From Escherichia phage vB_EcoM_ESCO47, in sequence record OM386662.1: 64,000 nucleotides of DNA. One strand, written 5' to 3'. The translations under genes were made by a program, and so were the position numbers. A model generated the notes under the pieces. That model was not told where the DNA came from, did not search any database, and saw only the letters and a list, made by a program, of their open reading frames with translations. Numbering within the stretch: the stretch's first letter is position 1; every line of letters starts with the position of its first letter. This document shows positions 1 through 35,391 of the stretch, one piece after another.

Positions 1-1
1 T

Positions 2-364
2 AATCTTTGTTTTGATGTCGATGATTGCATCACGGAATGGAATAACACTCGTGATTACGTGAACTTCAAGCCAGACAGCGAAATGGTGTCTGCTATTAAT
101 GCCTTGTATGATGCAGGGCATACCATAACGCTTTACACTGCTCGCGGTATGAAGTCGGTAGGTCCTGGTCGTATAGCAATTGACATTCTCCCAAGTCTGA
201 TTCAGAACTTGGAAAACATTGGTTTGAAGTACCATAATTTGCTAACACATAAACCAGTATATGATTGGATTATCGACGACAAAGCTATGCGTCCTGACGA
301 ATTCAAAGCTCTTATGAATAAAGGCGAATTCGAAACATTTAAATCATATAAACCTAATCTATAA
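2..364 (+). CDS. HAD-superfamily phosphatase, small IIIA-like type; 5' end lies outside the window
   Basis: Frame is open from the window edge; FDVDDC nucleophile motif near the visible N-terminus and a later WIIDDK motif; the listed ORF start at 59 is an internal GTG. Confidence 0.6.
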   Translation, partial: NLCFDVDDCITEWNNTRDYVNFKPDSEMVSAINALYDAGHTITLYTARGMKSVGPGRIAIDILPSLIQNLENIGLKYHNLLTHKPVYDWIIDDKAMRPDEFKALMNKGEFETFKSYKPNL

Positions 365-421
365 TAATTTAAGTAAGACCTGCAAAAACCATCGCGTCAA
401 TTAACGTGAGATGCAAAAAAA

Positions 422-1582
422 ATGAATACTTTTAAAATCGGAACGAATTTTGATTTAGCTCTTCTTGATAAAATCGTAGAGCTCAATAAAACTTATCCTA
501 ATAGCTTAATAAACGAAGTATACGGCTCTACAAGAGAAATGGCTTTTGTAGCAGCCAGACCTGATTTTAGGCTTCCTGACGTTGACAAAAAGATGTTAGA
601 AGATTACGTTAAACGTTGTAACGAATTAGGTATTTGCTTTAACTATACACTCAACACGATAAATCCTGGTTCAAAAAGAGAACTAGTTGAGTGGAAGAAG
701 AAAGCTATTCAGGATTATGTTCAGTATCTTTGGTCAATAGGCGTATGGCGTATTACTATCGCTAACCCTGTTGTTATGGAAATTGTTCGTGAAGTCAATA
801 AAGACATTGAGATTGAAGTTTCAACAATTCTACATGTCGATGCTGTAACTCAAATCAAATACTTGCATGACCAATATAATATTAAAAAGGTCTGTTGCGG
901 AATTCATAAGAACCGTTCAGTTTCTTTCCTGAAGCGTGCAGCAGAGTTTTGCAATAAGAACAATATAATATTTGAAGTTCTTGTAAATGAGTTCTGTTCT
1001 AATGCTGGTAAAGGGTATACAACACATTGTAGTTATCGTGACTCTTGCTATATTTTCCATAGTACTGATGTTACAGTTGATGATGCTAAATCCTTAAACG
1101 GATATCCAATGCAACACTGCATTAAAGCTCGTGATACAGACCCATTTAACTGGTTGAGAACTCGTTTTGTTCGTCCTCAAGATTTGAAACTTTATAATGA
1201 TATTGGTATCACTCAATTCAAAGTTTCAGGACGTACAGGTAGCACAGACTACATTTTGAAAGTTCTTGAAGCATACGCTTCTGAAAAGTTTGAAGGTAAT
1301 TTGTTAGAACTGTGGAAGCCTTTAGAGACTATTTTCACTCTTGAAAATGAAACTGAGTTTTCACATACAGTAAATATTGAAACCTCTTTGTTAGATGGCT
1401 TTTTAGAAAAAAGGTGGTTCAGACATCCAGATTTCGATTGTGCTAATGAAATCTGCGGGACGACGTGTACATATTGTGAAAGATATTATAAACGTCAATT
1501 ATCTAAAAACGGGTTATCAGAAAATTCTATATCTATTATTGATATAACTAACTCTGATGACGCTTTGAGGTACCCGGAATGA
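422..1582 (+). CDS. U32-family-like TIM-barrel protein with Cys-rich C-terminus (putative Fe-S enzyme)
   Basis: 386 aa; NYTLNTIN, VSTILH and FEVLVNEFC...HCSYRDSC segments resemble the peptidase-U32 core; C-terminal CANEICGTTCTYC (CX4CX3CX2C). Confidence 0.45.
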   Translation: MNTFKIGTNFDLALLDKIVELNKTYPNSLINEVYGSTREMAFVAARPDFRLPDVDKKMLEDYVKRCNELGICFNYTLNTINPGSKRELVEWKKKAIQDYVQYLWSIGVWRITIANPVVMEIVREVNKDIEIEVSTILHVDAVTQIKYLHDQYNIKKVCCGIHKNRSVSFLKRAAEFCNKNNIIFEVLVNEFCSNAGKGYTTHCSYRDSCYIFHSTDVTVDDAKSLNGYPMQHCIKARDTDPFNWLRTRFVRPQDLKLYNDIGITQFKVSGRTGSTDYILKVLEAYASEKFEGNLLELWKPLETIFTLENETEFSHTVNIETSLLDGFLEKRWFRHPDFDCANEICGTTCTYCERYYKRQLSKNGLSENSISIIDITNSDDALRYPE

Positions 1583-1818
1583 TTTCTAGAAAAACTTTTA
1601 ACCACCAACTTAATGAAGAGATTTTGACTATGAAAATTAACAGCATCGAACAAATTCTTAAAAAGGCCCTTATGGGCCTGTTTGAAACTAAAGCGGCTAA
1701 AGTGATTAAAGAACCTGTTCAACTAGAATATTACGCTGATGCATTTCTTCATAGTGTTCTTGGAAGTATCGATGCTGAAGCTTTACGTTATATCAACATC
1801 GCTAAGAAATTCAAATAA
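1579..1818 (+). CDS. hypothetical protein (79 aa)
   Basis: ATGA stop/start overlap with upstream gene; no motif recognised. Confidence 0.4.
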   Translation: MISRKTFNHQLNEEILTMKINSIEQILKKALMGLFETKAAKVIKEPVQLEYYADAFLHSVLGSIDAEALRYINIAKKFK

Positions 1819-1860
1819 GCTTTATGAATTGAGTATATAATAAATTGTATTGAGGTAAAC

Positions 1861-2577
1861 ATGGGAAAACATAACACAATGAAATATATCAAAGCCGCAG
1901 ATTTTCAAGCCGCATTTAAAGCAGTCAATCGTGAAATTTTAGAAAACCCGGAATTCGTAACTGATTCTCGTATTGGTCGTTGTAATGAAATTGGGTCTAT
2001 GACAGTAGTTGTTGACACTCCATCATCATTCAAAATGACCGACCCACGTATTAACCGCATCTCTTATGAATATGCCGAAGACTTCTGGAAATTTATGATT
2101 TCTGGTGGTACTGATGCAGAAGAAGCATTTAAGGCATATCCTAACGTTGCTAAATTTATTTCTAAACCAAAATCAGATGCTTTGCCTGCGAACTTCAACA
2201 CTTTCTATGGTCCTCGCATTGCGGCCCAATTACCAACTCTTCTAAAAGAACTTAAAGAGAAGCCTAACTCTCGAAGAGTTGTGTTCCAAATTCTAGAAAG
2301 TTCTGATCAGGCTTTGCTTGATTCGGACGAAACACTTGAATATCCATGTACTGACTCGGTGACTTATTATATTCGCGATGGTAAGCTTTATACCCACTGT
2401 CATATGCGTTCTCAGAACTGTGCTGTTGTTATGCAGTTGGATTTTTATCTCCAAGGAAAATTACTTCATTATATCGCTAACGAATGTGGTGTAGAAGTTG
2501 GTGATTATACTCATACCATGGTAAGTGCCCATGTGTTTGAACGTGATTTTGATTATGTTAAAGGATTCCTTGACTAA
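1861..2577 (+). CDS. 42: deoxycytidylate hydroxymethylase-like enzyme (thymidylate synthase fold)
   Basis: NSRR, YPCTDSVTYYIRDGKL (Cys nucleophile) and RSQN motifs align with the TS family; Asp at the position of TS Asn177; sits where T4 has gene 42, upstream of uvsX. Confidence 0.75.
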   Translation: MGKHNTMKYIKAADFQAAFKAVNREILENPEFVTDSRIGRCNEIGSMTVVVDTPSSFKMTDPRINRISYEYAEDFWKFMISGGTDAEEAFKAYPNVAKFISKPKSDALPANFNTFYGPRIAAQLPTLLKELKEKPNSRRVVFQILESSDQALLDSDETLEYPCTDSVTYYIRDGKLYTHCHMRSQNCAVVMQLDFYLQGKLLHYIANECGVEVGDYTHTMVSAHVFERDFDYVKGFLD

Positions 2578-3476
2578 TGGCTATTTTCCGCGTACCTATC
2601 TTGAGTATGCGGTCTTATGAAACCGGACAGTATGCTATCCTTAAGGATGGCAACTTCCAACTTCATTTGCACCGTGCTAATCCAGGTGATGTGATTACAT
2701 ATCCACGTAATGCATCTGATATTAAAGAATGTGAACGTCTTTTCCCAGAATTTAAGTTTGTTCCATTATGGTATAAAGATAACGCGTATAACACTCGTAA
2801 ATATTTCTGGTCTGAAAATGAATTTGTGGTTGATTCATTAATTGCTTATTATGATTGTGATTTTCTAATCACAGATATCACTGGATATGATGGTGTTTTT
2901 GATGTAGAATTCAATTTCAATATCACTGCAGACCCTAATAAACCACGTTTTTATATTGACGAATTCTTAAAAACCGATATGTTGTCGGTTAATCGTTCAC
3001 TTCAAACTACTGTGTTGAATGAACGTCAAAAAGAAGTGCTGGTTAACGCAGGTGCAGATGGTAATAAGATTATCGTAACGCAGAAAGTTATACGTCCTTC
3101 CATCATGCAGCGTCTTGTAGGTGATTTGGCTCCTATTCATCTAGATGGTATTTTTCATCCATTTCGAATTAGTGACCCGTGCTATCGTTTTGAACAAGTG
3201 GTTGAATGTGCAATTCAATTAGGCCAACCACTTTATATAACCGATCCAAATAATAGCTTCGACAGAAATAAGTATCCTGAAGAAGCGCTGATTCGAATTT
3301 TTAAACCAACTAAAACTGAGTACTATCAAATTCTTAAAGGACGTCCGAAGATTCAATATTTCGAAAATCCTGAAGAAGTATTCCATCCAGGTCTTGGTGA
3401 GTTCATCTACTTTAACGCTTTAATTTCTTCGCCGTATAATATACCTAAATATGAAGATGTCGTAATCGAGGAATAA
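2577..3476 (+). CDS. hypothetical protein (299 aa) in the slot T4 uses for beta-glucosyltransferase
   Basis: TAATG stop/start overlap with gene 42; no resemblance to T4 Bgt as I recall it; no motif recognised. Confidence 0.55.
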   Translation: MAIFRVPILSMRSYETGQYAILKDGNFQLHLHRANPGDVITYPRNASDIKECERLFPEFKFVPLWYKDNAYNTRKYFWSENEFVVDSLIAYYDCDFLITDITGYDGVFDVEFNFNITADPNKPRFYIDEFLKTDMLSVNRSLQTTVLNERQKEVLVNAGADGNKIIVTQKVIRPSIMQRLVGDLAPIHLDGIFHPFRISDPCYRFEQVVECAIQLGQPLYITDPNNSFDRNKYPEEALIRIFKPTKTEYYQILKGRPKIQYFENPEEVFHPGLGEFIYFNALISSPYNIPKYEDVVIEE

Positions 3477-3477
3477 A

Positions 3478-4026
3478 ATGGCTAAAATTATTTTAGTAGA
3501 TGGCCCAGATAATGCTGGTAAAACAACTTTCATTAATGACATAATGGAAATTAGTGAAAGATATGTAAAGATTGATTTCCCTAAACGAACTGTAGATGGA
3601 CGCTTTGATGTTAAGTCTCGAAATGAAGTAGGCTGTTTCGAAACAATGCTAAATTATTTAGACCCTACTAAGATTTATCTGTTAGACCGTGGATATATTA
3701 GTAACTGGGTTTACGGACGTATTCGACAAGATGCGGACTCGGTTCTTGACGTTTATGAACAGGATTATGTTCGTCTTTGCCAAAACCATGATGTGTTCAC
3801 AATTATTTTAACACGTAACGAAATGACTGAAAGTTTTGAAGACGACCTTATCACGTTGTCTGCTCATGGCTTTAATTTTGTTATCTCACTTTTTGAAGAG
3901 TTTGCTGCTCATAATGGAATACAATCTTATCAGTTATTAAACCATGATGGTGCTAACAAAGTTATAGGATTTAATGTAAGTGAACGCAATGCATTGATTG
4001 CAGAAATTATCAAATGGGCTCGTTAA
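3478..4026 (+). CDS. P-loop nucleotide/nucleoside kinase (thymidylate-kinase / deoxynucleoside-kinase-like)
   Basis: Walker A ILVDGPDNAGKTT at N-terminus; LLDRGYIS (DR motif) as in Tmk/dNK kinases; 182 aa. Confidence 0.6.
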   Translation: MAKIILVDGPDNAGKTTFINDIMEISERYVKIDFPKRTVDGRFDVKSRNEVGCFETMLNYLDPTKIYLLDRGYISNWVYGRIRQDADSVLDVYEQDYVRLCQNHDVFTIILTRNEMTESFEDDLITLSAHGFNFVISLFEEFAAHNGIQSYQLLNHDGANKVIGFNVSERNALIAEIIKWAR

Positions 4027-4126: not shown

Positions 4127-5299
4127 ATGTCTGATTTAAAATCTCGTCTGATTAAAGCTTCTACTTCCAAAATGACCGCTGACTTGACTAAGTCTAAGCT
4201 CTTTAATAATCGTGATGAAGTCCCTACTCGTATTCCTATGTTGAATATTGCATTAGGTGGTGCATTGAATGCTGGTTTGCAGTCTGGTTTGACTATTTTT
4301 GCTGCCCCGTCTAAACACTTTAAAACATTGTTTGGGTTGACAATGGTTGCCGCATATATGAAGAAATACCCAGATGCGATCTGTTTGTTCTATGATTCAG
4401 AATTTGGTGCTTCAGAATCTTATTTCCGTTCAATGGGTGTTGATTTGGACCGCGTAGTTCACACTCCAATCCAATCAGTAGAACAACTTAAAGTTGATAT
4501 GACTAATCAGCTTGATGCAATCGAACGCGGTGAAAAGGTTATCATCTTTATTGACTCAATCGGTAACACAGCGTCTAAGAAAGAAACTGAAGATGCATTG
4601 AACGAAAAAGTTGTTGGTGATATGTCTCGTGCTAAGGCACTTAAATCTCTGTTCCGCATTGTGACCCCGTATCTGACTATTAAAGATATTCCGTGTGTTG
4701 CAATTAACCATACAGCAATGGAAATCGGCGGATTGTATCCTAAAGAGATTATGGGCGGCGGTACAGGTATTCTTTATTCTGCCAACACGGTATTTTTTAT
4801 CTCTAAACGTCAGGTTAAAGAAGGTACAGAATTGGCCGGTTATGACTTCACGTTGAAAGCAGAAAAATCTCGCACAGTTAAAGAGAAATCTACATTCCCG
4901 ATCACTGTTAATTTTGATGGTGGTATCGACCCATTCAGTGGCTTGTTAGAAATGGCAACTGAAATTGGTTTTGTAGTTAAGCCTAAAGCAGGTTGGTATG
5001 CTCGTGAATTCCTTGACGAAGAAACCGGTGAAATGGTTCGTGAAGAAAAATCCTGGCGAGCTAAAGCCACAGATTGCGTAGAATTCTGGGGACCTTTGTT
5101 TAAACACAAACCTTTCCGAGATGCAATTGAAACTAAATATAAACTAGGTGCTATCTCTTCTATTAAAGAAGTTGACGACGCAGTTAACGAATTAATCAAT
5201 GCTAAAACGTCTTCGAAAATTCCGGTAAAAGCTTCTGGTGCTCCATCTGCAGCTGATATCGAAAATGATTTAGACGATATGGAAGATTTTGATGAATAA
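4127..5299 (+). CDS. uvsX: UvsX recombinase (RecA-like)
   Basis: 390 aa; N-terminus MSDLKSRLIKASTSK and long stretches matching T4 UvsX as I recall it; RecA-type ATPase core. Confidence 0.96.
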   Translation: MSDLKSRLIKASTSKMTADLTKSKLFNNRDEVPTRIPMLNIALGGALNAGLQSGLTIFAAPSKHFKTLFGLTMVAAYMKKYPDAICLFYDSEFGASESYFRSMGVDLDRVVHTPIQSVEQLKVDMTNQLDAIERGEKVIIFIDSIGNTASKKETEDALNEKVVGDMSRAKALKSLFRIVTPYLTIKDIPCVAINHTAMEIGGLYPKEIMGGGTGILYSANTVFFISKRQVKEGTELAGYDFTLKAEKSRTVKEKSTFPITVNFDGGIDPFSGLLEMATEIGFVVKPKAGWYAREFLDEETGEMVREEKSWRAKATDCVEFWGPLFKHKPFRDAIETKYKLGAISSIKEVDDAVNELINAKTSSKIPVKASGAPSAADIENDLDDMEDFDE

Positions 5300-5633
5300 T
5301 CTTGATGATTTGAATCTAGAAATCGTTGATGAATCCCCTTCTTCGGAAGGGGAGGACATTCGCAAAGAACGTGTGTTTAATGAATCTCTTAAAGTTATCC
5401 AATCGGCAATGGAGAACGTCATTCAAGAGATTCTTATTACACTTGAAGATGGTTCTCATCATATAGTCTATATTACAAAATTAGACTGGGTTGATGGAAA
5501 AATCGTAATGGACTTTGCAGTTCTTGATCAGGACAGAAAAGCAGAACTTGTGCCGCATGTTGAAAAGTGTGTTACAATGCAAGTACAACAAGCTTTTAAT
5601 GAACGAACCAAGAAAAAATTTAAATTCTTTTAA
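5289..5633 (+). CDS. 40: gp40-like head vertex assembly protein
   Basis: 114 aa; overlaps uvsX stop and immediately precedes gene 41 as in the T4 uvsX-40-41 operon; assigned by synteny. Confidence 0.6.
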   Translation: MMNNLDDLNLEIVDESPSSEGEDIRKERVFNESLKVIQSAMENVIQEILITLEDGSHHIVYITKLDWVDGKIVMDFAVLDQDRKAELVPHVEKCVTMQVQQAFNERTKKKFKFF

Positions 5634-5642
5634 GGAGTTATC

Positions 5643-7085
5643 GTGGTAGAAATTATTTTGTCTCATCTTGTATATGACCAGACTTATTTTTCTAAAGTCT
5701 GGCCGTATATGGATTCTGAGTATTTTGAGCGTGGACCGGCAAAAAATGTCTTTAAAATTATAAAGAACCACGTTAACGAATACAGTGCTATGCCATCTAT
5801 TAACGCATTAAAGGTGGCTTTAGATAATAGTTCTTTAACCGAAAACGAGTATAAAGGAACTTCCGATTTAATCGATAAATTGGTCGATTCTCCTGAAGAC
5901 CCTGATTGGTTGGTTAAAGAAACCGAGAAATATGTCCAGCAAAAAGCAATGTATAATGCTACGTCTAAAATCATTGAGATTCAGACTAATGCTGAACTTC
6001 CACCTGAACAACGTAATAAGAAAATGCCTGACGTAGGAGCTATTCCAGACATTATGCGTCAAGCACTTTCAATCTCATTTGATAGTTATGTCGGTCATGA
6101 CTGGATGGATGACTATGAAGCTCGTTGGTTATCTTATCAGAATAAAGCACGTAAGGTCCCGTTCAAATTAAACATTTTGAATAAAATCACTAAAGGTGGT
6201 GCTGAAACCGGTACACTGAATGTTTTAATGGCTGGTGTTAACGTCGGTAAATCTTTAGGCCTTTGTTCACTTGCTGCAGATTATCTTCAAACAGGTCATA
6301 ATGTTCTTTATATTTCCATGGAAATGGCTGAAGAAGTTTGTGCTAAGCGTATAGATGCAAACATGCTTGACGTATCACTTGATGATATCGATGATGGTAA
6401 TGTATCTTATGCTGAATATAAAGCCAAGATGGAAAAATGGCGTTCAAAATCCACATTAGGACGTTTAGTAGTTAAACAGTATCCTACCGGCGGAGCTAAT
6501 GCTAATACATTCCGTGCATTACTTAACGAATTAAAACTCAAGAAGAACTTCGTTCCTTCTGTAATCATGATTGACTACTTGGGTATTTGTGGGTCTTGTC
6601 GTATCAGAGTTTACACTGAAAATAGCTACACATTAGTTAAAGCTATCGCAGAAGAACTTCGTGCTTTAGCGGTAGAATCTGAAACTGTTCTATGGACTGC
6701 AGCTCAGGTTGGTCGAGCAGCATGGGACGCTTCTGATATGAACATGAGTGATATCGCAGAATCAGCAGGTTTACCGGCGACAGCAGACTTCATGTTAGCA
6801 GTAATTGAGACCGAAGAACTTGCTCAAGCAGAACAGCAGCTCATTAAACAAATCAAATCACGGTATGGTGATAAGAACAAATGGAATAAATTCCTGATGG
6901 GTGTACGTAAAGGCAATCAGAAGTGGGTTGAAATTGAACAAGAAGGTATGAACACCACAAACACGGTAAATGAAAACGCAGGTGCTCAGATGCGTCACGC
7001 GGAAGCGAATCGTACGGAACGCGTAGGAAAAGCTAAAGCGACTAGAGCAGATTTAGACAATCTAGCCAATGAATTAAAATTTTAA
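5643..7085 (+). CDS. 41: replicative DNA helicase gp41 (DnaB-like)
   Basis: 480 aa; Walker A GVNVGKS; DnaB-family architecture; synteny with uvsX/40/61. Confidence 0.95.
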   Translation: MVEIILSHLVYDQTYFSKVWPYMDSEYFERGPAKNVFKIIKNHVNEYSAMPSINALKVALDNSSLTENEYKGTSDLIDKLVDSPEDPDWLVKETEKYVQQKAMYNATSKIIEIQTNAELPPEQRNKKMPDVGAIPDIMRQALSISFDSYVGHDWMDDYEARWLSYQNKARKVPFKLNILNKITKGGAETGTLNVLMAGVNVGKSLGLCSLAADYLQTGHNVLYISMEMAEEVCAKRIDANMLDVSLDDIDDGNVSYAEYKAKMEKWRSKSTLGRLVVKQYPTGGANANTFRALLNELKLKKNFVPSVIMIDYLGICGSCRIRVYTENSYTLVKAIAEELRALAVESETVLWTAAQVGRAAWDASDMNMSDIAESAGLPATADFMLAVIETEELAQAEQQLIKQIKSRYGDKNKWNKFLMGVRKGNQKWVEIEQEGMNTTNTVNENAGAQMRHAEANRTERVGKAKATRADLDNLANELKF

Positions 7086-7091
7086 TAAAAA

Positions 7092-7110
7092 GGAGACTTC
7101 GGTCTCCTTT
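7092..7110 (+). terminator. terminator-like hairpin after gene 41
   Basis: GGAGAC-TTCG-GTCTCC then TTT; short T tract. Confidence 0.4.
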
Positions 7111-7114
7111 CGGG

Positions 7115-7144
7115 GTTTACACCGCTCTTAAATCATGTTACTAT
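7115..7144 (+). promoter_or_regulatory. early promoter-like element
   Basis: -35 GTTTAC 7115-7120, 18-bp spacer, -10 TACTAT 7139-7144, then conserved AGACCTATCAA; ATG at 7171. Confidence 0.5.
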
Positions 7145-7170
7145 AGACCTATCAACTACTGGAGAACAAA

Positions 7171-7488
7171 ATGAAAACTATCGATTGCAAAGCAGAGTTT
7201 AAAGTTTTTTACCATGGCTCAAGCAGTGCAGCAAACATCGAAAACATGCTTTGTCCTCCTGAAGAAACAGGTGTACTGTCTGAAACCGGACGTAAGAAAA
7301 ACCTAAATCGAGTATTCTTTACTGAAGACATTGGTTTAGCAAAGATTTATGCAGGACGAGCAGCACGATCCTATGGAGGTGAACCACGTCTTTATCGAGT
7401 AATCACTCCGGTAGACGTAGTTCAAATGAATGATACTAAAGGTGCTACGGTATATCACGCCGAATGGGCCTTCTGTGAGGAAATATGA
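7171..7488 (+). CDS. hypothetical protein (105 aa)
   Basis: Preceded by an early promoter element; contains FYHGSS motif; function not recognised. Confidence 0.5.
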   Translation: MKTIDCKAEFKVFYHGSSSAANIENMLCPPEETGVLSETGRKKNLNRVFFTEDIGLAKIYAGRAARSYGGEPRLYRVITPVDVVQMNDTKGATVYHAEWAFCEEI

Positions 7489-7673
7489 GCAAATTAACTA
7501 AAGTTACTTTTATCGGTTGGTTTAAAAGCGGTGAGATGTTCACTAAAGATATCATGTTATCAGGTGATCGCGAAGAAATCGAGTGGGTTACGGTACAACT
7601 TGCTGAAGTGAACAACGCATTAGTTAAAGCATTTGTTAATGACGAGAAAGTTTTCGAAGCAGATTTTCGATAA
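7485..7673 (+). CDS. hypothetical protein (62 aa)
   Basis: Stop/start overlap with upstream ORF; no motif recognised. Confidence 0.4.
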   Translation: MSKLTKVTFIGWFKSGEMFTKDIMLSGDREEIEWVTVQLAEVNNALVKAFVNDEKVFEADFR

Positions 7674-7686
7674 TTTTAAAATAACT

Positions 7687-7716
7687 GTTTACAGGCCCCA
7701 CATACTGTGTTACTAT
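7687..7716 (+). promoter_or_regulatory. early promoter-like element
   Basis: -35 GTTTAC 7687-7692, -10 TACTAT 7711-7716, CTATCAA downstream; ATG at 7745. Confidence 0.5.
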
Positions 7717-7744
7717 CTTTCTATCAACTACAGAGGAAATTGAA

Positions 7745-8113
7745 ATGAAAAAATTAATCGCTTTAGCAATGGTATTTGGATTAACCGGATGTGGTGCCCA
7801 TGGCTTTATCCCTAATAACGTCGGCCAATTGATTTACAATCCGAATGTTAAACAGTATGACCAACCTAAAGTTGAAGTGGAAGACCCAGTTACTGTAGGT
7901 AATCGAATGATTCAAGCTGATGCTCATGCTCAACGTTATCGTGATTCTGATACTGTAGCTGTGTCAAAAGAACAGCGCGTTAAAGAACATTGCTTACAGG
8001 CTACTGAAATCGCATTCATTCGCTATGTTGAAACAACTGGTAAAGAGCCTTCCCAGAAACAAATCGCGAATAACTACGTCCAGTGTATTGAACGTTTAAA
8101 CAAATTTAATTAA
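7745..8113 (+). CDS. putative lipoprotein (122 aa)
   Basis: N-terminal signal peptide with lipobox-like LTGC; promoter element upstream. Confidence 0.55.
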   Translation: MKKLIALAMVFGLTGCGAHGFIPNNVGQLIYNPNVKQYDQPKVEVEDPVTVGNRMIQADAHAQRYRDSDTVAVSKEQRVKEHCLQATEIAFIRYVETTGKEPSQKQIANNYVQCIERLNKFN

Positions 8114-8116
8114 TTG

Positions 8117-8146
8117 GTTTACGCCAAAGTTAAAACAAGATACTAT
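8117..8146 (+). promoter_or_regulatory. early promoter-like element
   Basis: -35 GTTTAC 8117-8122, -10 TACTAT 8141-8146; ATG at 8175. Confidence 0.5.
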
Positions 8147-8174
8147 AAACATAACAAATCAAGAGGAAATTAAC

Positions 8175-8423
8175 ATGGAATTATTCGTAGCTAGTTCAGT
8201 AGCAGTTTTAATCGCAGGTATTGGTTCAATCATCATTTACATGTTGCCTTGGGTAATCGCACTTATTCGTGGCACAAAAAGCACAACAGCAATCTTCTTT
8301 GTATCTTTACTCTTTAACTGGACGATGGTTGGTTGGATTGGAACTTTAATTTGGTCTATCGTTGCCAAAAAGAAATCGGCTCAGCAGCCTCAACAAGTAA
8401 TTATTATTCGAGAAAAAGAATAA
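8175..8423 (+). CDS. imm: superinfection-immunity (Imm-family) membrane protein
   Basis: 82 aa, two predicted TM helices; LPWVIALIRG...FNWTMVGWIGTLIW matches the conserved core of the Imm superinfection-immunity family. Confidence 0.6.
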   Translation: MELFVASSVAVLIAGIGSIIIYMLPWVIALIRGTKSTTAIFFVSLLFNWTMVGWIGTLIWSIVAKKKSAQQPQQVIIIREKE

Positions 8424-8427
8424 ACTT

Positions 8428-8462
8428 GTTTACATTATAGATGGACTATAGTATAGTAGTCC
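8428..8462 (+). promoter_or_regulatory. early promoter-like element with inverted repeat around -10
   Basis: -35 GTTTAC 8428-8433, -10 TATAGT 8452-8457 inside GGACTA...TAGTCC repeat 8443-8462; ATG at 8487. Confidence 0.5.
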
Positions 8463-8486
8463 TATCAAATCAACTAAGGAGATAAA

Positions 8487-8780
8487 ATGAAAAAGTTATC
8501 ATTGGCAGCAATCTTACTTGCAGTATCATGCGCACCGGCTCCAGTTACGGCAGGTTATGATAAAGACCTCTGTGAGTGGTCAATGACTGCAAATCAAGAA
8601 GATGTTGAACAACAAATCTTCTCTGATATCATGAACATCACTAAACGAGACCGTCCTAATATGGTTAATAAAGTTGTTGAACAACTTAAGTCTGGCGGTA
8701 TCATGCAGTACAATTATGTTTTGTATTGTGACCCTAATTTTGATAACAAAGATATCGTAACCGAAATCACAGGTGAATAA
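8487..8780 (+). CDS. sp: spackle-like periplasmic protein (superinfection exclusion)
   Basis: 97 aa with signal peptide; GYDKDLCEWSMTA...QYNYVLYCD resembles T4 Sp as I recall it; adjacent to imm-like gene. Confidence 0.6.
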   Translation: MKKLSLAAILLAVSCAPAPVTAGYDKDLCEWSMTANQEDVEQQIFSDIMNITKRDRPNMVNKVVEQLKSGGIMQYNYVLYCDPNFDNKDIVTEITGE

Positions 8781-8781
8781 T

Positions 8782-9432
8782 ATGATTTATTATATGCACA
8801 AAAATGCGCCATTTAAATATGGTAAATTTCCTAATGCACAATGTTATAATATAACGCCGAATGAAAATAATAACGGATATCATCTCGGTGTAATTTTTGT
8901 AATTGTTAAAGATAACGAAATCGTCGCCTGGGCGGATTTTAAAGGTACAACATATGATGTTAATCCTGTGCCTTTCACATATTACAATATAACGGATTTG
9001 GCATATGATTATAATTGGTTTAATCATGACACGTTGGCTCATATTGAAGGTGTAGGATTTGACATCTCTTATTCTAGCTATTCATTATGTCCTATGAGCC
9101 GAGCTCACGGTAAAGATGCATCATATCTTTCAATTCGTAAACGTGTAAACTTCAAACGTAGTACAGATTATGTTGGTGGTCTCTTTGTTAAAGATAATAA
9201 AATAACCCGTATTAGTTATCCTTTAAGTGTAGGTCAAAAAGATGTTGATGTTGATTTAGACTTAACTGAAAATAACATTAATCGTATTGCTTCTGTATAT
9301 TTTGATATCGATGAAAAAATTGTAGTGTGTGGATACGAATTACCACCTGAAGAAAAGGCTGAAGCAATTGAAGTCGAATTAGAAATTTCTGTTGATGACC
9401 AAATATTTAATGCATTTATGAATCGAGGTTAA
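8782..9432 (+). CDS. hypothetical protein (216 aa)
   Basis: Listed ORF begins at GTG 8773; first ATG at 8782 follows GGTGA; no motif recognised. Confidence 0.5.
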   Translation: MIYYMHKNAPFKYGKFPNAQCYNITPNENNNGYHLGVIFVIVKDNEIVAWADFKGTTYDVNPVPFTYYNITDLAYDYNWFNHDTLAHIEGVGFDISYSSYSLCPMSRAHGKDASYLSIRKRVNFKRSTDYVGGLFVKDNKITRISYPLSVGQKDVDVDLDLTENNINRIASVYFDIDEKIVVCGYELPPEEKAEAIEVELEISVDDQIFNAFMNRG

Positions 9433-9433
9433 A

Positions 9434-9631
9434 ATGGCTACTGCAATTTGCACTGGTTCTAAAATTAGTGTTTTTACAAGTTTTGAAGATTATGAAGTTG
9501 TTTCAAAACACCAATGCCATATTAGCGTAAAAGCTAATGACGGTGTAATTTGGAATATTCCACAGTATGAAGGCACTACATATGAAGTCACAGATATAAA
9601 TGGTGACAAAGCAATCTTTGTAATTGATTAA
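9434..9631 (+). CDS. hypothetical protein (65 aa)
   Basis: Tightly packed after upstream ORF; no motif recognised. Confidence 0.4.
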   Translation: MATAICTGSKISVFTSFEDYEVVSKHQCHISVKANDGVIWNIPQYEGTTYEVTDINGDKAIFVID

Positions 9632-9650
9632 ATATACTCAGGAGGTACCT

Positions 9651-10118
9651 ATGGGTATTATTAACACCGCAATAGATTCTGTTTACGCATATAAGTTTAT
9701 TCGACTAATGCAAAAACCTTTTACCGAATGGAAAGCATACGAAGCCAAAATTATCGATGAACGTGGAAGTGTTCTTAAACGTCCTTCTACTCCCGAAGAA
9801 AAAGCGGCGTATACACCTTTTCATGCTTCAGTTCGTTCAATGAAGCGAATGATGAGCACTGTTCCGGGTCTTAATGGAATGGCCTCAATGATGTCTGCCT
9901 GGAGTGCTGTAGCTTCACGCTATAACATTACGGAAGAACAACAGAAAGAAATATTTAAAGAACTCCCTTTATTTGAGGATATGGTTGCTGGTGATTCAGG
10001 CGGCAGTCCTCAAGCTATTGCATCAGGAACAACTACAGGTGCAGTCGTAAATAAAGGTCCAGACCAAATTCCTTCCAAGAAAAGAAAGCGAATTAAAGTA
10101 AATATTAATAAGTTGTGA
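9651..10118 (+). CDS. hypothetical protein (155 aa)
   Basis: ATG at 9651 preceded by AGGAGG; listed ORF start 9624 is upstream in frame. Confidence 0.5.
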   Translation: MGIINTAIDSVYAYKFIRLMQKPFTEWKAYEAKIIDERGSVLKRPSTPEEKAAYTPFHASVRSMKRMMSTVPGLNGMASMMSAWSAVASRYNITEEQQKEIFKELPLFEDMVAGDSGGSPQAIASGTTTGAVVNKGPDQIPSKKRKRIKVNINKL

Positions 10119-10157
10119 TAAGATGGCCTTATTAATTTAAGGCCTCTGGAGAATACT

Positions 10158-11180
10158 ATGGCTGAATGGATAGATAATGAATTTGCTTATCGTGCGTTTT
10201 CTCACCTACCTCGTTTTAGACAAATCAATAATTCAAGCACATTTAAATTAACATTTCGTTGTCCAGTTTGTGGCGACTCCCAGACAGATGCAATGAAAGC
10301 CCGCGGTTGGTATTATGGCGGTACTCCTGGCAATGTACATTGTTATAACTGTCAATATCATAATACAATTTCTGGATACTTAAAAGAGTATGATGAAGAG
10401 CTTTATCGCGAATATCTAATGGAAGTTCGTAAAGAAAAAGCTAGAATGGAACCAAAGATTGAAAAGTTTCCTGAAGCTAAGCCGGAACCAGAGAAAAAGA
10501 CTATAAATTCTTTGCCGTCTTGTTCTCGTCTGGACAAGTTGCCTGAAGAGCATCCTATTGTGAAATATGTTAAGTCTCGATGCATTCCTAAAGAATCATG
10601 GAATAGACTATGGTTCACATTAGAATGGCCTAAATTGGTCAACAAGATTCAACCAGGGACATACAAGAAAGAGATTCCTGAACCACGTTTAGTGATTCCT
10701 ATTTTTAATAAAGATGGGAAGGCCGAGTCATTCCAAGGACGTGCACTTCGTAAAGATGCTCCTCAGAAATATATCACTATTAAAGCGTTTGAGACGGCAA
10801 CGAAAATATACGGTGTTGAACGTGTTAAGGAAGGAGATGTCTGGGTAATGGAAGGTCCTATTGATAGTTTATTCATACCCAATTCAATAGCTATTACAGG
10901 CGGCTCGATAGATTTAGATATGGTACCATTTAAAGAACGTCGGGTATGGGTAATGGATAATGAACCTAGGCATCCGGATACTATAGCTCGTATGAAACGT
11001 TTGGTAGATGCAGGCGAACGTGTCATGTTCTGGGATAAAGCTCCATGGAGATCAAAGGATGTGAATGATATGGTAATGAAAGAAAATGCAACACCAAATG
11101 AAATCCTTGAATATATGAAACAGAATATTTCAAGTGGGTTGCATGCTAAAATGAGATTATCTAAATATTCTAAAATTTAG
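10158..11180 (+). CDS. 61: DNA primase gp61
   Basis: 340 aa; zinc-ribbon CPVCGDS...CYNC and near-colinear match to T4 gp61 as I recall it. Confidence 0.95.
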   Translation: MAEWIDNEFAYRAFSHLPRFRQINNSSTFKLTFRCPVCGDSQTDAMKARGWYYGGTPGNVHCYNCQYHNTISGYLKEYDEELYREYLMEVRKEKARMEPKIEKFPEAKPEPEKKTINSLPSCSRLDKLPEEHPIVKYVKSRCIPKESWNRLWFTLEWPKLVNKIQPGTYKKEIPEPRLVIPIFNKDGKAESFQGRALRKDAPQKYITIKAFETATKIYGVERVKEGDVWVMEGPIDSLFIPNSIAITGGSIDLDMVPFKERRVWVMDNEPRHPDTIARMKRLVDAGERVMFWDKAPWRSKDVNDMVMKENATPNEILEYMKQNISSGLHAKMRLSKYSKI

Positions 11181-11374
11181 ACCAATCCTACTAGTGCAAA
11201 AGCAATATCAACTACTGTGTCAAGAGGCACAGAAGGAACGATAATACCGTTAGCAACTAGCAATGGAGCAATACCGAAATTCCAAGAAATGATTCCACCA
11301 ATAACAACAGCGGCTAAAATCGTTTTCTTTTTATGTCCTTTGATAGCGGCGATTAACAACGGTAACTTAAGCAT
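11177..11374 (-). CDS. small membrane protein (65 aa), antisense to the early-gene flow
   Basis: Hydrophobic; GGAG 9 nt upstream of ATG; paralogous to the adjacent minus-strand ORF. Confidence 0.5.
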   Translation of the reverse strand: MLKLPLLIAAIKGHKKKTILAAVVIGGIISWNFGIAPLLVANGIIVPSVPLDTVVDIAFALVGLV

Positions 11375-11570
11375 GCAAATTAACTCCGATTGCTTTGATT
11401 ATTGAAAGTATATGCTGTAACTCCACTTGTGGTAATATAATAGCTTGAGTTGCGGCCAATGGAACTATTACTAGATTCCATACTAAAACGTCCACAGCAA
11501 GAAAAAAGAATATCAACTTACGTGATTCTTTATTTGTTAACTTCCAGATTTGATAGAACACAGTTCCCAT
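11367..11570 (-). CDS. small membrane protein (67 aa), antisense to the early-gene flow
   Basis: AGGAGG 4 nt upstream of ATG; overlaps downstream ORF by 8 nt; shared WN(F/L)xI(A/V)PL core with its neighbour. Confidence 0.5.
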   Translation of the reverse strand: MGTVFYQIWKLTNKESRKLIFFFLAVDVLVWNLVIVPLAATQAIILPQVELQHILSIIKAIGVNLHA

Positions 11571-11598
11571 AAATCCTCCTACGTTATAGGTTTATTTA

Positions 11599-11623
11599 TG
11601 CTTTTTATCAGGTTTGGTATAAT
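11599..11623 (+). promoter_or_regulatory. candidate middle promoter upstream of gene 56
   Basis: TGCTTT 11599-11604 followed 13 bp later by -10 TATAAT 11618-11623. Confidence 0.4.
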
Positions 11624-11658
11624 TAACATCTCTTAAACATGAATTGAAAGGAAATAAA

Positions 11659-12180
11659 ATGGCGCACTTTAACGAATGTTCACAACTGATTGCTGGTGTT
11701 GATAAAGCTGAAGAAGCTTATTTTAATGCTCTTATTCACGAAGATAAAGACCCGTTGCAGGTAATGCTTGATATGCAGAAATCTTTACAGGTTCGTCTGG
11801 CAAATGACAAGCCTGAACATAACAAACATCCTGATGAATTGGCCACTGCTGGTGAAGTCGTTGATTGGCTACGCAATCAGAAAGATTATATTGACGATGA
11901 ATTCCGTGAACTTCTGACTTCTCTTGGTGGTATGAGCAATGGTGAAAAAGCCGCCAGCAGTGTATGGAAGCCGTGGAAGGCGCAACATGCTGAATATCGA
12001 AATCGTCGTATCGATGAACTGTCTCCTGAAGACCAGCTTGAAATCAAATTTGAAATGATTGATATTCTCCATTTCGTTCTGAATATGTTCCAAGGTCTTG
12101 GTCTTACTGCTGAAGAAATCTTTAAATTGTACTACCTGAAGAACAAACATAATTTTGAACGCCAGGATAATGGATATTAA
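11659..12180 (+). CDS. 56: dCTP pyrophosphatase gp56 (dCTPase/dUTPase-like)
   Basis: MAHFNEC...DPLQVMLDMQ...YYLKNK...RQDNGY matches T4 gp56 as I recall it; listed ORF starts at TTG 11644, ATG at 11659. Confidence 0.9.
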   Translation: MAHFNECSQLIAGVDKAEEAYFNALIHEDKDPLQVMLDMQKSLQVRLANDKPEHNKHPDELATAGEVVDWLRNQKDYIDDEFRELLTSLGGMSNGEKAASSVWKPWKAQHAEYRNRRIDELSPEDQLEIKFEMIDILHFVLNMFQGLGLTAEEIFKLYYLKNKHNFERQDNGY

Positions 12181-12182
12181 GA

Positions 12183-12190
12183 TATAAATA
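12183..12190 (+). promoter_or_regulatory. late promoter (TATAAATA) for soc
   Basis: Exact TATAAATA 29 nt upstream of the soc ATG. Confidence 0.7.
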
Positions 12191-12218
12191 CACCTGTAAT
12201 TAACTAAAGGAGTAAATT

Positions 12219-12470
12219 ATGGGTGGATATGTAAATATCAAAACGTTCGACCATGAAGTAGCAGGTGGTACAGTAGAAGGTACCGAGGTTTCTGTTGCAT
12301 TTGAAGTTTATTCTAATGCTCATCGAATCTCAGGTGCGCACTATCAGACTTTCCCGTCTGAAGAACCAGCCTATGATACTGTGGTTGACACCGCAGATGA
12401 TTGGGCAACAGCAAATGAAGCTATGTTTACCCCAGAACCTGCACCGGTTCCTCCAGGACCCGGTGCATAA
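12219..12470 (+). CDS. soc: small outer capsid protein Soc
   Basis: 83 aa; GYVNIKTF...VSVAF..Y...H.ISGAHYQTFPSE matches T4 Soc as I recall it; TATAAATA late promoter upstream. Confidence 0.85.
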   Translation: MGGYVNIKTFDHEVAGGTVEGTEVSVAFEVYSNAHRISGAHYQTFPSEEPAYDTVVDTADDWATANEAMFTPEPAPVPPGPGA

Positions 12471-12480
12471 GTTAATTATA

Positions 12481-12506
12481 AGGAATCCTTCGGGATTCCT
12501 TTTTTC
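12481..12506 (+). terminator. rho-independent terminator after soc
   Basis: AGGAATCC-TTCG-GGATTCCT then TTTTT. Confidence 0.7.
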
Positions 12507-34839: not shown

Positions 34840-35391
34840 TTATCTGAAGATATTTATCACTCTTTTAAAAAATGATTTTCGTTCTTTTTCTGGCCATGCC
34901 GGGAATTCGCCACCTAAATGCTCATGCTTTTCATAAAGAGCAAAGAAACGTTTAAGATTCTGGTAATAGAATTTCTCGTCTTTATTTGCAACAGAAGCTT
35001 CAACCAAATTAGACAAGACTTGGTACTCTTTAAAAAGTTGATCAAGTTTTCTATTTCTAAGAGTCAAACGTTTATAACACTCATCCTCTTTCCAGCCGCC
35101 ATCTATCCAAAGATCAAACTCGCCAGGCTCATCAAATGTTGCACCCTGTAAGCTTCCTATACTATCAATTTTAACGGGTTGTTTATCGAAGGTCCAAGCT
35201 AGTTTACCGCGATGATCTTCTTCGTAAATCCAATCTTGAATGCGTTCGTCAAAAACAATCGCATATCCTTCTTTATGATCAAGTGGTTTTTTAGTTGTAG
35301 AATGCGCCGGGAGCCCAATGCCTTTAACAGGTTTATATGTTTCTTCTTTATAAAATTCTTTAGTGTCAAAATAGTAGTGGTAAATTTTCAT
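34840..35391 (-). CDS. 38: tail fibre assembly protein gp38 (T4-type)
   Basis: 183 aa; MKIYHYYFDTKEFYKEE...HLGGEFP matches T4 gp38 as I recall it. Confidence 0.9.
   Translation of the reverse strand: MKIYHYYFDTKEFYKEETYKPVKGIGLPAHSTTKKPLDHKEGYAIVFDERIQDWIYEEDHRGKLAWTFDKQPVKIDSIGSLQGATFDEPGEFDLWIDGGWKEDECYKRLTLRNRKLDQLFKEYQVLSNLVEASVANKDEKFYYQNLKRFFALYEKHEHLGGEFPAWPEKERKSFFKRVINIFR

What the first reader, a model, noticed from the sequence alone, without database searches (positions are those of the whole stretch)
8175..8780. Imm-like and spackle-like superinfection-exclusion genes adjacent, between genes 41 and 61
A two-TM Imm-family protein (8175..8423) is followed by a 97-aa signal-peptide protein resembling spackle (8487..8780). 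In T4 these two exclusion factors are at separate loci (imm near gene 42, sp between 61 and 56). Here they form a contiguous pair inside a run of small genes that includes a lipoprotein, suggesting a consolidated exclusion/envelope module.
Basis: partly seen in the sequence, partly recalled or inferred. Interest (0 to 1): 0.4.

Follow-up and report, generated by a model that had tools for sequence, protein, structure and literature searches.

The report
RB69-type imm.1–imm–sp exclusion gene cluster
These are true copies of the phage T4 superinfection-exclusion genes imm and spackle sitting side by side, but this layout is the normal one, annotated since the RB69 reference genome, for the whole RB69 group of T4-like coliphages, so it is ordinary.

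Summary
Both ORFs are real and correctly identified. ORF 8175-8423 is the single-copy ortholog of T4 Imm (63% identity over the full length; PF14373). ORF 8487-8780 is Spackle (66% identity to T4 Sp; PF25676 E 1e-42; PDB 6x6o E 1e-39; disulfide cysteines and named gp5-contact residues conserved).

The window comes from a Mosigvirus, an RB69-like T-even coliphage.

The "lipoprotein" at 7745-8113 is the homolog of T4 Imm.1, which is imm's upstream neighbour in T4. The imm.1-imm cassette lies between genes 43 and 42 in T4-type phages. In RB69-type phages it lies just upstream of sp.

The RB69 reference genome annotates exactly this imm.1-imm-sp block. It is contiguous at 95-99% nucleotide identity in 154 GenBank phage records. 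Tequatrovirus, Gaprivervirus and Klebsiella-type relatives keep imm next to gene 43, and the Dhakavirus-type relatives sampled have no imm beside sp, so the adjacency is one lineage-specific relocation.

Each of the three genes has its own T4-type early promoter motif. Nothing indicates a fused or co-dependent module. Verdict: already known, low interest.

The parts
7687..7716 (+). T4-type early promoter motif (GTTTAC-N18-TACTAT) upstream of imm.1
   Evidence: The pattern has 11 hits in the window, all on the + strand, against 0.23 expected by chance. This is a consensus match only. Transcription was not measured.
7745..8113 (+). imm.1 homolog: 122-aa exported protein with lipobox LTG|C (predicted lipoprotein), Pfam DUF5481, function unknown
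   Evidence: PF17578 E 3.1e-9. PHROG 1754. 32% identity to T4 Imm.1 over 125 aa, E 1e-18, with the lipobox Cys aligned. No similarity to T4 gp61.4. Annotated imm.1 in RB69.
8117..8146 (+). T4-type early promoter motif (GTTTAC-N18-TACTAT) upstream of imm
   Evidence: The same 61-bp spacer, differing at one base, is present in RB69. In T4 the imm.1-imm spacer is only 11 bp.
8175..8423 (+). imm: ortholog of T4 superinfection immunity protein, 82 aa, two hydrophobic segments
   Evidence: It is single-copy in the window and in all 1061 phage records with a match.
8428..8457 (+). T4-type early promoter motif (GTTTAC-N18-TATAGT) upstream of sp
8487..8780 (+). sp (spackle, gene 61.3): periplasmic inhibitor of the gp5 tail lysozyme, 97-aa precursor with a 22-residue leader
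   Evidence: Cys29, Cys81, Ser32-Ala35, Gln37 and Asn76 are conserved (residues as named in PMC7677548).
7485..7673 (+). dmd (context, upstream boundary of the block)
   Evidence: PF17587 E 3e-20. 56% identity to T4 Dmd.
8782..9432 (+). adfA / gene 61.2 (context, downstream boundary). It starts 1 nt after the sp stop codon.
   Evidence: PF23813 AdfA E 3e-118. 65% identity to T4 gp61.2.

Best explanation
This is the standard RB69-type (genus Mosigvirus) version of the T-even early region between helicase gene 41 and primase gene 61. It carries three small envelope-directed early genes in a row.

- imm.1 encodes an exported, probably lipidated protein of unknown function.
- imm encodes an inner-membrane protein. 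By orthology to T4 Imm, it prevents the DNA of a later-arriving T-even phage from crossing the inner membrane.
- sp encodes a protein that is secreted to the periplasm and loses its 22-residue leader. By orthology to T4 Spackle, it binds the lysozyme domain of the incoming phage's gp5 tail spike 1:1 and inhibits it.

sp is in its ancestral position. The imm.1-imm cassette lies just downstream of DNA polymerase gene 43 in T4-type phages. In the Mosigvirus ancestor it was relocated to a site just upstream of sp. In RB69-type phages the 43-42 interval holds sugar-nucleotide/arabinose-type genes instead.

Each of the three genes is preceded by its own T4-type early sigma-70 promoter motif, so all should be switched on within the first minutes of infection, independently of one another.

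What is shown here: gene identities, single-copy status, synteny and its phylogenetic distribution, promoter motifs, and conservation of the Sp/gp5 contact residues. What is inferred: the exclusion activities themselves (from T4 work), the direction of the relocation, and promoter activity.
For: Identity of the genes.

The window is a Mosigvirus: 96-97.5% nucleotide identity to NHEP36, AV109 and others.

T4 gene order is 41-dmd-61.4-sp-61.2-61.1-61 and 43-imm.1-imm-42. RB69 order is 41-...-dmd-61.4-imm.1-imm-sp-61.2, annotated as such.

The imm.1-imm-sp block is contiguous at 95-99% identity in 154 records, including RB69 at 98.0%. The T4 imm.1-imm block is contiguous in 502 records. 154 + 502 = 656, which is every record with an Imm.1 match. 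Imm occurs once per genome in 1061 of 1061 records.

In 19 IMG/VR loci Sp always lies between 41 and 61. Imm lies after gene 43 in the Tequatrovirus-, Gaprivervirus- and Klebsiella-type loci, and next to Sp only in the two Mosigvirus-type loci.

A footprint remains at the old site. RB69ORF054c, still in the 43-42 interval, is homologous to the small ORF in the T4 imm-42 spacer (71% over 115 nt, E 3e-10).

Promoter motif GTTTAC-N18-TAYWRT: 11 hits, all on the + strand, against 0.23 expected. Four of them precede ORF 7171, imm.1, imm and sp.

RB69 gp5 retains R181, R182, R187, K189, R312, K321, G322 and R326, the Sp-binding residues (residues from PMC7677548).

N-terminal sequencing showed that T4 Sp loses its first 22 residues in the periplasm (PMC7650644).
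Against: No experiment on this phage's proteins is available, so function rests on 63-66% identity to the T4 proteins.

The last nine residues of Sp, part of the gp5 interface, differ at 4 of 9 positions from T4 (DIVTEITGE vs NIIAEVVGE). gp5 residue 188 differs in RB69 (L to D). Specificity could therefore differ.

The promoter pattern was partly derived from the four sites it is then used to support. The independent support is the other seven + strand hits.

The direction of the relocation is inferred by outgroup comparison, not from a rooted tree.
Confidence: 0.9

Rival explanations
1. The adjacency is a selected functional consolidation. On this view imm.1, imm and sp form one co-regulated, co-inherited envelope-spanning exclusion module (outer-membrane lipoprotein, periplasmic inhibitor, inner-membrane protein) that works better together than apart.
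For: The three genes are adjacent in 154 of 154 Mosigvirus-type records. All three products are envelope-directed. Imm.1 accompanies Imm in all 656 records that have it and moved with it.
Against: Conservation within a group that is 95-99% identical at this locus only reflects shared ancestry, so it counts as one evolutionary event.

Imm is not beside Sp in any other lineage sampled. They lie about 5-6 kb apart in Tequatrovirus-, Gaprivervirus- and Klebsiella-type phages, and no Imm lies within 8 kb upstream of Sp in the Dhakavirus-type loci.

Each gene keeps its own promoter motif and Shine-Dalgarno sequence, with 61-63 bp spacers and no overlap or coupling.

Gaprivervirus- and Klebsiella-type phages have imm and sp without imm.1.
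Confidence: 0.07
2. The 82-aa gene is not the functional imm. It would be a diverged PF14373 paralog with another membrane role, with the true imm lying elsewhere in the genome.
For: Its genomic position differs from T4 imm. PF14373 is a broad family, with matches in Klebsiella, Pseudomonas, Burkholderia and siphophage genomes.
Against: It is 63% identical to T4 Imm over all 83 residues, including the C-terminal QVIIIREKE tail. There is exactly one match per genome in all 1061 records, including the roughly 153 Mosigvirus-type ones, and one in the window. It is preceded by the homolog of imm's T4 neighbour imm.1.
Confidence: 0.02
3. The RB69-type order (imm next to sp) is ancestral, and the T4-type position next to gene 43 is derived.
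For: No rooted phylogeny was built here. T4-type and RB69-type phages are sister-like groups.
Against: Imm lies directly after gene 43 in three further lineages: Gaprivervirus PSD2001 and loci L011, L012, L020; Klebsiella-type loci L024-L026; and Salmonella phage Melville, where it is next to dCMP hydroxymethylase. RB69 retains a homolog of the T4 imm-42 spacer ORF in the 43-42 interval.
Confidence: 0.03

Closest known systems
Phage RB69 (Mosigvirus RB69, NC_004928 / AY303349) genes imm.1 (RB69p037), imm (RB69p036), sp (RB69p035)
   Same: Same three genes in the same order and orientation, with the same 61- and 63-bp spacers and the same promoter motifs; each spacer differs at one base. The block is 98.0% identical in nucleotides over 1036 bp. 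Both have sugar-modification genes in the 43-42 region.
   Different: The window lacks RB69's gene 61.4 between dmd and imm.1, where there is only a 71-bp spacer. It also lacks RB69ORF041c after gene 41. No record in the phage collection is identical over 7100-10200; the best is 97.5%.
Phage T4 Imm (gene imm, NP_049660) and its upstream neighbour Imm.1
   Same: Imm has the same length (82 vs 83 aa) and is 63% identical, with two hydrophobic segments and the same C-terminal tail. Imm.1 is 32% identical and shares the lipobox. The gene order imm.1 then imm is preserved.
   Different: In T4 the pair lies between genes 43 and 42, about 6 kb from sp, with an 11-bp spacer and no promoter motif between the two genes. 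Here the pair lies between dmd and sp, with a 61-bp spacer carrying a promoter motif. Imm.1 has diverged much more (32%) than Imm (63%) or Sp (66%).
Phage T4 Spackle (gp61.3; PDB 6x6o, 6xc0, 6xc1, 7cn6, 7cn7)
   Same: 97 aa with an ungapped alignment, 66% identical overall and 72% in the mature part. It has the same leader length, the Cys29-Cys81 pair and the contact residues S32-A35, Q37 and N76. Its position between 41 and 61, directly upstream of 61.2/adfA, is also the same.
   Different: The upstream neighbour is imm rather than 61.4. The C-terminal nine residues differ at 4 positions.

Membership tests
Imm superinfection immunity protein (Pfam PF14373; T4 Imm) | Match to the family profile above the curated threshold | tested here: met
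   PF14373 E 1.8e-15, 57 bits against a cut-off of 27.9, covering profile positions 1-42 of 42. PHROG 1039 E 1.8e-30.
Imm superinfection immunity protein (Pfam PF14373; T4 Imm) | Full-length similarity to the experimentally characterised T4 Imm | tested here: met
   52 of 83 residues identical, E 2e-36, with one 1-residue gap.
Imm superinfection immunity protein (Pfam PF14373; T4 Imm) | Small (~83 aa) membrane protein with two hydrophobic segments | tested here: met
   Kyte-Doolittle 19-residue windows reach 1.6 or more across residues 1-34 and 40-59. Topology was not determined.
Imm superinfection immunity protein (Pfam PF14373; T4 Imm) | Blocks DNA entry of superinfecting T-even phage when expressed alone | not testable with these tools
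   This needs plasmid expression and plating or DNA-injection assays.
Spackle (Pfam PF25676; T4 gp61.3) | Match to the family profile and to the solved T4 protein | tested here: met
   PF25676 E 1.1e-42, 145 bits against a cut-off of 27, profile positions 1-96 of 96. 6x6o_A E 1.4e-39 and 7cn6_A E 1.1e-33.
Spackle (Pfam PF25676; T4 gp61.3) | Cleavable N-terminal export signal of 22 residues, with the mature protein starting GYDKD | tested here: met
   MKK followed by a hydrophobic stretch at residues 4-22, ending VTA|GYDKD and aligned to T4 AMA|GYDKD. Cleavage after residue 22 was shown for T4 by N-terminal sequencing (PMC7650644). It is inferred here.
Spackle (Pfam PF25676; T4 gp61.3) | Cys29-Cys81 disulfide and the gp5-lysozyme contact residues | tested here: met
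   C29, S32, M33, T34, A35, Q37, N76 and C81 are all identical to T4 (residues named in PMC7677548). The partner residues in RB69 gp5 are conserved.
Spackle (Pfam PF25676; T4 gp61.3) | Inhibits gp5 tail lysozyme but not the endolysin | not testable with these tools
   This needs binding and activity assays with the purified proteins.
Imm.1 (Pfam DUF5481, PF17578) | Profile match, similarity to T4 Imm.1, and position immediately upstream of imm | tested here: met
   PF17578 E 3.1e-9, 37.6 bits against a cut-off of 27. 32% identity to T4 Imm.1, E 1e-18. It is adjacent to imm in all 656 records that carry it.
Bacterial lipoprotein (for Imm.1) | Lipobox [LVI][ASTVI][GAS]C at the end of a signal peptide | tested here: inconclusive
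   LTG|C16 in the window and LAG|C in T4 fit the pattern. One 45%-identical homolog (P0002) has Phe in place of the Cys, so lipidation is not universal in the family.

The most novel reading that the evidence does not exclude
Imm.1 may be a functional partner or specificity determinant of Imm rather than a bystander.

It is found next to imm in all 656 phage genomes that carry it. It moved with imm as a unit when the cassette changed locus. It has diverged far more between the T4 and RB69 groups (32% identity) than Imm (63%) or Sp (66%).

If so, RB69-type phages would carry a three-layer envelope exclusion set in one 1-kb block: an outer-membrane or periplasmic Imm.1, periplasmic Sp and inner-membrane Imm. 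Imm.1 divergence could then contribute to the group-specific exclusion between T4 and RB69.
Probability: 0.15. Interest if true: 0.4.

Novelty: already known. Interest (0 to 1): 0.08.

Why it matters
It matters little as a discovery. The gene pair and its arrangement are already annotated in the RB69 reference genome and in many of the 154 other records that carry the block. The functions of Imm and Sp are textbook T4 biology with solved Sp structures.

The useful outcome is a corrected picture. sp has not moved. The imm.1-imm cassette has moved, once, in the Mosigvirus lineage, and imm.1 always travels with imm. That last point offers a cheap, testable lead on a T4 gene of unknown function.

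Tried and rejected
- Compared the lipoprotein (7745-8113) with T4 gp61.4, the gene that occupies that slot in T4. No similarity was found. It is Imm.1 instead.
- Looked for a second imm, a gene 5 or a 61.4 in the window. There is none. The only trace is a weak 61.4-like hit at 34921-35046, E 0.013.
- PDB sequence searches for Imm.1 and Imm found no hits at E up to 5.
- PADLOC defence-system models gave no hits for any of the small ORFs.
- Rfam at E up to 1 on 5000-12500, both strands, found nothing.
- The terminator scan of 7000-10300 found none.
- The large protein-database search with Imm.1 returned only 3 proteins. The resulting 3-sequence AlphaFold model was poor: mean pLDDT 62.5, with only the C-terminal helical hairpin at about residues 75-120 confident. 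No fold search was run on it because the matches would be meaningless.
- Literature searches for imm.1, and for Mosigvirus together with spackle, found no study of the arrangement. One comparative paper lists Imm.1 as a T4-group marker absent from the RB69 group (PMC5885020). That listing is probably an effect of the 32% divergence rather than true absence; this is an inference, not tested.
- Antisense ORFs inside the block (8237-8368, 8580-8684, 8594-8713, 8714-8812, 8767-9042, all on the - strand) lie inside well-supported + strand genes. They were not searched separately and were dismissed as frame noise.

Full report
**What is in the sequence.**
The region is a run of + strand genes:
- uvsX (4127-5299), gene 40 (5289-5633), helicase gene 41 (5643-7085)
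- a 105-aa ORF (7171-7488)
- dmd (7485-7673)
- a 122-aa ORF (7745-8113)
- the 82-aa ORF of the finding (8175-8423)
- the 97-aa ORF of the finding (8487-8780)
- adfA/61.2 (8782-9432)
- a 65-aa ORF (9434-9631)
- a 61.1-like ORF (9651-10118)
- primase gene 61 (10158-11180)

Both flagged ORFs start with ATG behind a good Shine-Dalgarno sequence.

**Identity of the two genes.**
The 82-aa protein matches Pfam Imm_superinfect (PF14373) at E 1.8e-15, 57 bits against a cut-off of 27.9. It matches PHROG 1039 'immunity to superinfection'. It aligns to T4 Imm over its whole length with 63% identity, E 2e-36, including the C-terminal QVIIIREKE tail. It has two hydrophobic segments.

The 97-aa protein matches Pfam T4_Spackle (PF25676) at E 1.1e-42. 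It aligns without gaps to the crystallised T4 Spackle (6x6o E 1.4e-39; 7cn6 E 1.1e-33). Identity is 66% overall and 72% in the mature part.

The disulfide pair Cys29/Cys81 is unchanged, as are Ser32-Ala35, Gln37 and Asn76, the residues named as contacting the gp5 lysozyme domain (PMC7677548). The leader ends VTA|GYDKD, aligned to the T4 site. For T4, N-terminal sequencing showed removal of the first 22 residues (PMC7650644).

**Where the window comes from.**
The 3.1 kb between genes 41 and 61 is 96-97.5% identical to many coliphages: NHEP36, AV109-AV118, JK42/45, mar005P1, the LF82 series and others. Those with a taxonomy line are Mosigvirus, the RB69 genus.

Upstream of uvsX the window carries a dCMP-hydroxymethylase-like gene flanked by a peptidase-like gene, a kinase and other genes, as in RB69. 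The T4 beta-glucosyltransferase is absent.

**Comparison with T4 corrects the premise.**
In the T4 reference record the order is 41, dmd, 61.4, sp, 61.2, 61.1, 61. imm.1 and imm lie between genes 43 and 42. The gene that has changed place is imm.

The 'lipoprotein' just upstream (7745-8113; lipobox LTG|C) shows no similarity to T4 gp61.4. It is the homolog of T4 Imm.1: 32% identity over 125 aa, E 1e-18, with the lipobox aligned, Pfam DUF5481. Imm.1 is imm's upstream neighbour in T4. What sits next to sp here is therefore the whole imm.1-imm cassette.

**The arrangement is already on record and is lineage-wide.**
The RB69 reference genome annotates dmd, 61.4, imm.1, imm, sp, 61.2 in this order.

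| Query | Records | Note |
|---|---|---|
| Window imm.1-imm-sp block (1036 bp) | 154 contiguous | 95-99% identity; includes RB69 at 98.0% |
| T4 imm.1-imm block | 502 contiguous | |
| Imm.1 | 656 with any match | equals 154 + 502 |
| Imm | 1061, one place each | RB69-type phages have no second copy |
| Imm in the window | one copy | |

**Direction of the change.**
I fetched 19 IMG/VR loci around Sp homologs and mapped marker proteins onto them. Sp lies between 41 and 61 in all 19.
- The five Tequatrovirus-type loci have 43-imm.1-imm-42.
- The three Gaprivervirus-type and three Klebsiella-type loci have imm directly after 43, without imm.1.
- The six Dhakavirus-type loci have no imm within 8 kb upstream of sp.
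- Only the two Mosigvirus-type loci have imm.1-imm next to sp.

Annotated records agree: PSD2001, dhaeg, and Melville, where imm abuts dCMP hydroxymethylase. Klebsiella phage JEC has imm and sp 5.5 kb apart.

RB69 also keeps, in its 43-42 interval, a small ORF (RB69ORF054c) homologous to the small hydrophobic ORF in the T4 imm-42 spacer (71% over 115 nt, E 3e-10). This looks like a footprint of the old site.

The simplest reading is one relocation of the cassette on the Mosigvirus branch. The alternative, that the RB69 order is ancestral, would need several independent moves to the same place.

**Expression signals.**
Each of the four intergenic spacers before ORF 7171, imm.1, imm and sp contains GTTTAC-N18-TA(C/T)(T/A)(A/G)T, followed by a Shine-Dalgarno sequence. 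The pattern occurs 11 times in the 64-kb window, always on the + strand, against 0.23 expected by chance.

The pattern was written from those four sites, so the independent support comes from the seven other hits, all co-oriented. The spacers differ from RB69's at only one base each. In T4 the imm.1-imm spacer is only 11 bp with no such motif.

No terminator-like site and no Rfam match lie in the block. The genes therefore appear to be separately promoted early genes. They do not overlap and show no sign of translational coupling.

**Mechanism.**
By orthology, Imm in the inner membrane prevents DNA of a later-arriving T-even phage from entering the cytoplasm. Sp in the periplasm binds and inhibits the lysozyme domain of the incoming gp5 tail spike. 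This is established T4 biology (structures and assays in PMC7677548 and PMC7650644).

The window does not contain gene 5. In RB69, used as a proxy, gp5 keeps every residue named at the Sp interface: R181, R182, R187, K189, R312, K321, G322 and R326. Only L188 changes, to D, and the lysozyme domain is 76% identical. The Sp-gp5 interaction is thus plausibly preserved and may cross-react between groups.

These functional statements are inferences for this phage. Nothing here tests activity.

**Is it a 'consolidated module'?**
The adjacency is real, but the evidence for selection on it is weak. It has a single origin, and conservation among genomes 95-99% identical at this locus is uninformative. 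Each gene has its own promoter, and in every other lineage sampled imm is not beside sp.

The one observation that goes beyond annotation is that imm.1 never separates from imm (656 of 656 records) and moved with it. Imm.1 has also diverged much more (32%) than Imm or Sp. That is compatible with Imm.1 being a partner or specificity factor of Imm, but equally with plain hitch-hiking of a neighbour.

Attempts to learn more about Imm.1 failed. There was no PDB hit and no PADLOC hit. Only three database homologs turned up, and the AlphaFold model was poor. One homolog lacks the lipobox cysteine, so lipidation is not a fixed feature of the family.

**Verdict.**
The arrangement is already known from the RB69 genome annotation, and the block is present in 154 GenBank records. 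Interest is low.

Noticed in passing
window 7171-7488 (+): A 105-aa ORF (RB69ORF040c homolog, PHROG 2110, unknown function) overlaps the dmd start by 4 nt (ATGA), which suggests translational coupling to the antitoxin-like Dmd. It has a sub-threshold Pfam hit to Arr-ms rifampin ADP-ribosyltransferase (E 0.086, 13.5 bits against a cut-off of 25). It is present upstream of dmd in the Mosigvirus-, Dhakavirus- and Gaprivervirus-type loci but in none of the Tequatrovirus- or Klebsiella-type loci.
   Followed up: partly
window 7674-7744 and 7086-7170: Relative to RB69, this phage lacks gene 61.4 between dmd and imm.1, where there is only a 71-bp spacer. It also lacks RB69ORF041c after gene 41. NHEP36 and the LF82 phages, which match the query from its first base just after gene 41, share the second deletion.
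   Followed up: partly
window 11177-11374 (-) and 11367-11570 (-): Two tandem small hydrophobic ORFs (65 and 67 aa) lie on the opposite strand between primase gene 61 and gene 56. They are weakly similar to each other (35% over 31 aa, E 6e-6). The first corresponds to RB69ORF029w. Only one is annotated in related records. There are no PADLOC hits.
   Followed up: partly
window 8487-8555 (Sp leader), alignment A3: Cys15 inside the Sp signal peptide is invariant across four genera. In T4 (LAS|C) and in PSD2001/dhaeg (VAS|C) it forms a canonical lipobox. Published N-terminal sequencing of the soluble periplasmic fraction shows cleavage after residue 22 (PMC7650644). Whether a lipidated, membrane-bound form also exists was not addressed there.
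   Followed up: partly
window 9651-10118 (+): The 61.1-like protein is 155-164 aa here, against 54 aa in T4. Only its C-terminal ~40 residues are homologous to T4 gp61.1 (73% identity). RB69's annotation splits the region into two ORFs.
   Followed up: no
window 7089-7110 (+): A perfect hairpin, AAAGGAGAC-TTCG-GTCTCCTTT, lies directly after the gene 41 stop codon and just before the early-promoter motif at 7115. It is not followed by a T-run, so the terminator scan did not call it.
   Followed up: no
window 1-4026 (+): Upstream of uvsX the window carries the RB69-type cluster: a peptidase-like 386-aa gene, a gene 42-like dCMP hydroxymethylase, a 299-aa ORF and a thymidylate-kinase-like gene. 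T4's imm.1/imm, beta-glucosyltransferase and segA are absent. This is the interval that imm.1-imm vacated.
   Followed up: partly
window 8773-8784: The mechanical ORF list starts adfA at GTG 8773, overlapping sp. The ATG at 8782, 1 nt after the sp stop, matches the T4 gp61.2 N-terminus and the annotations of related phages. This gives 216 aa.
   Followed up: yes
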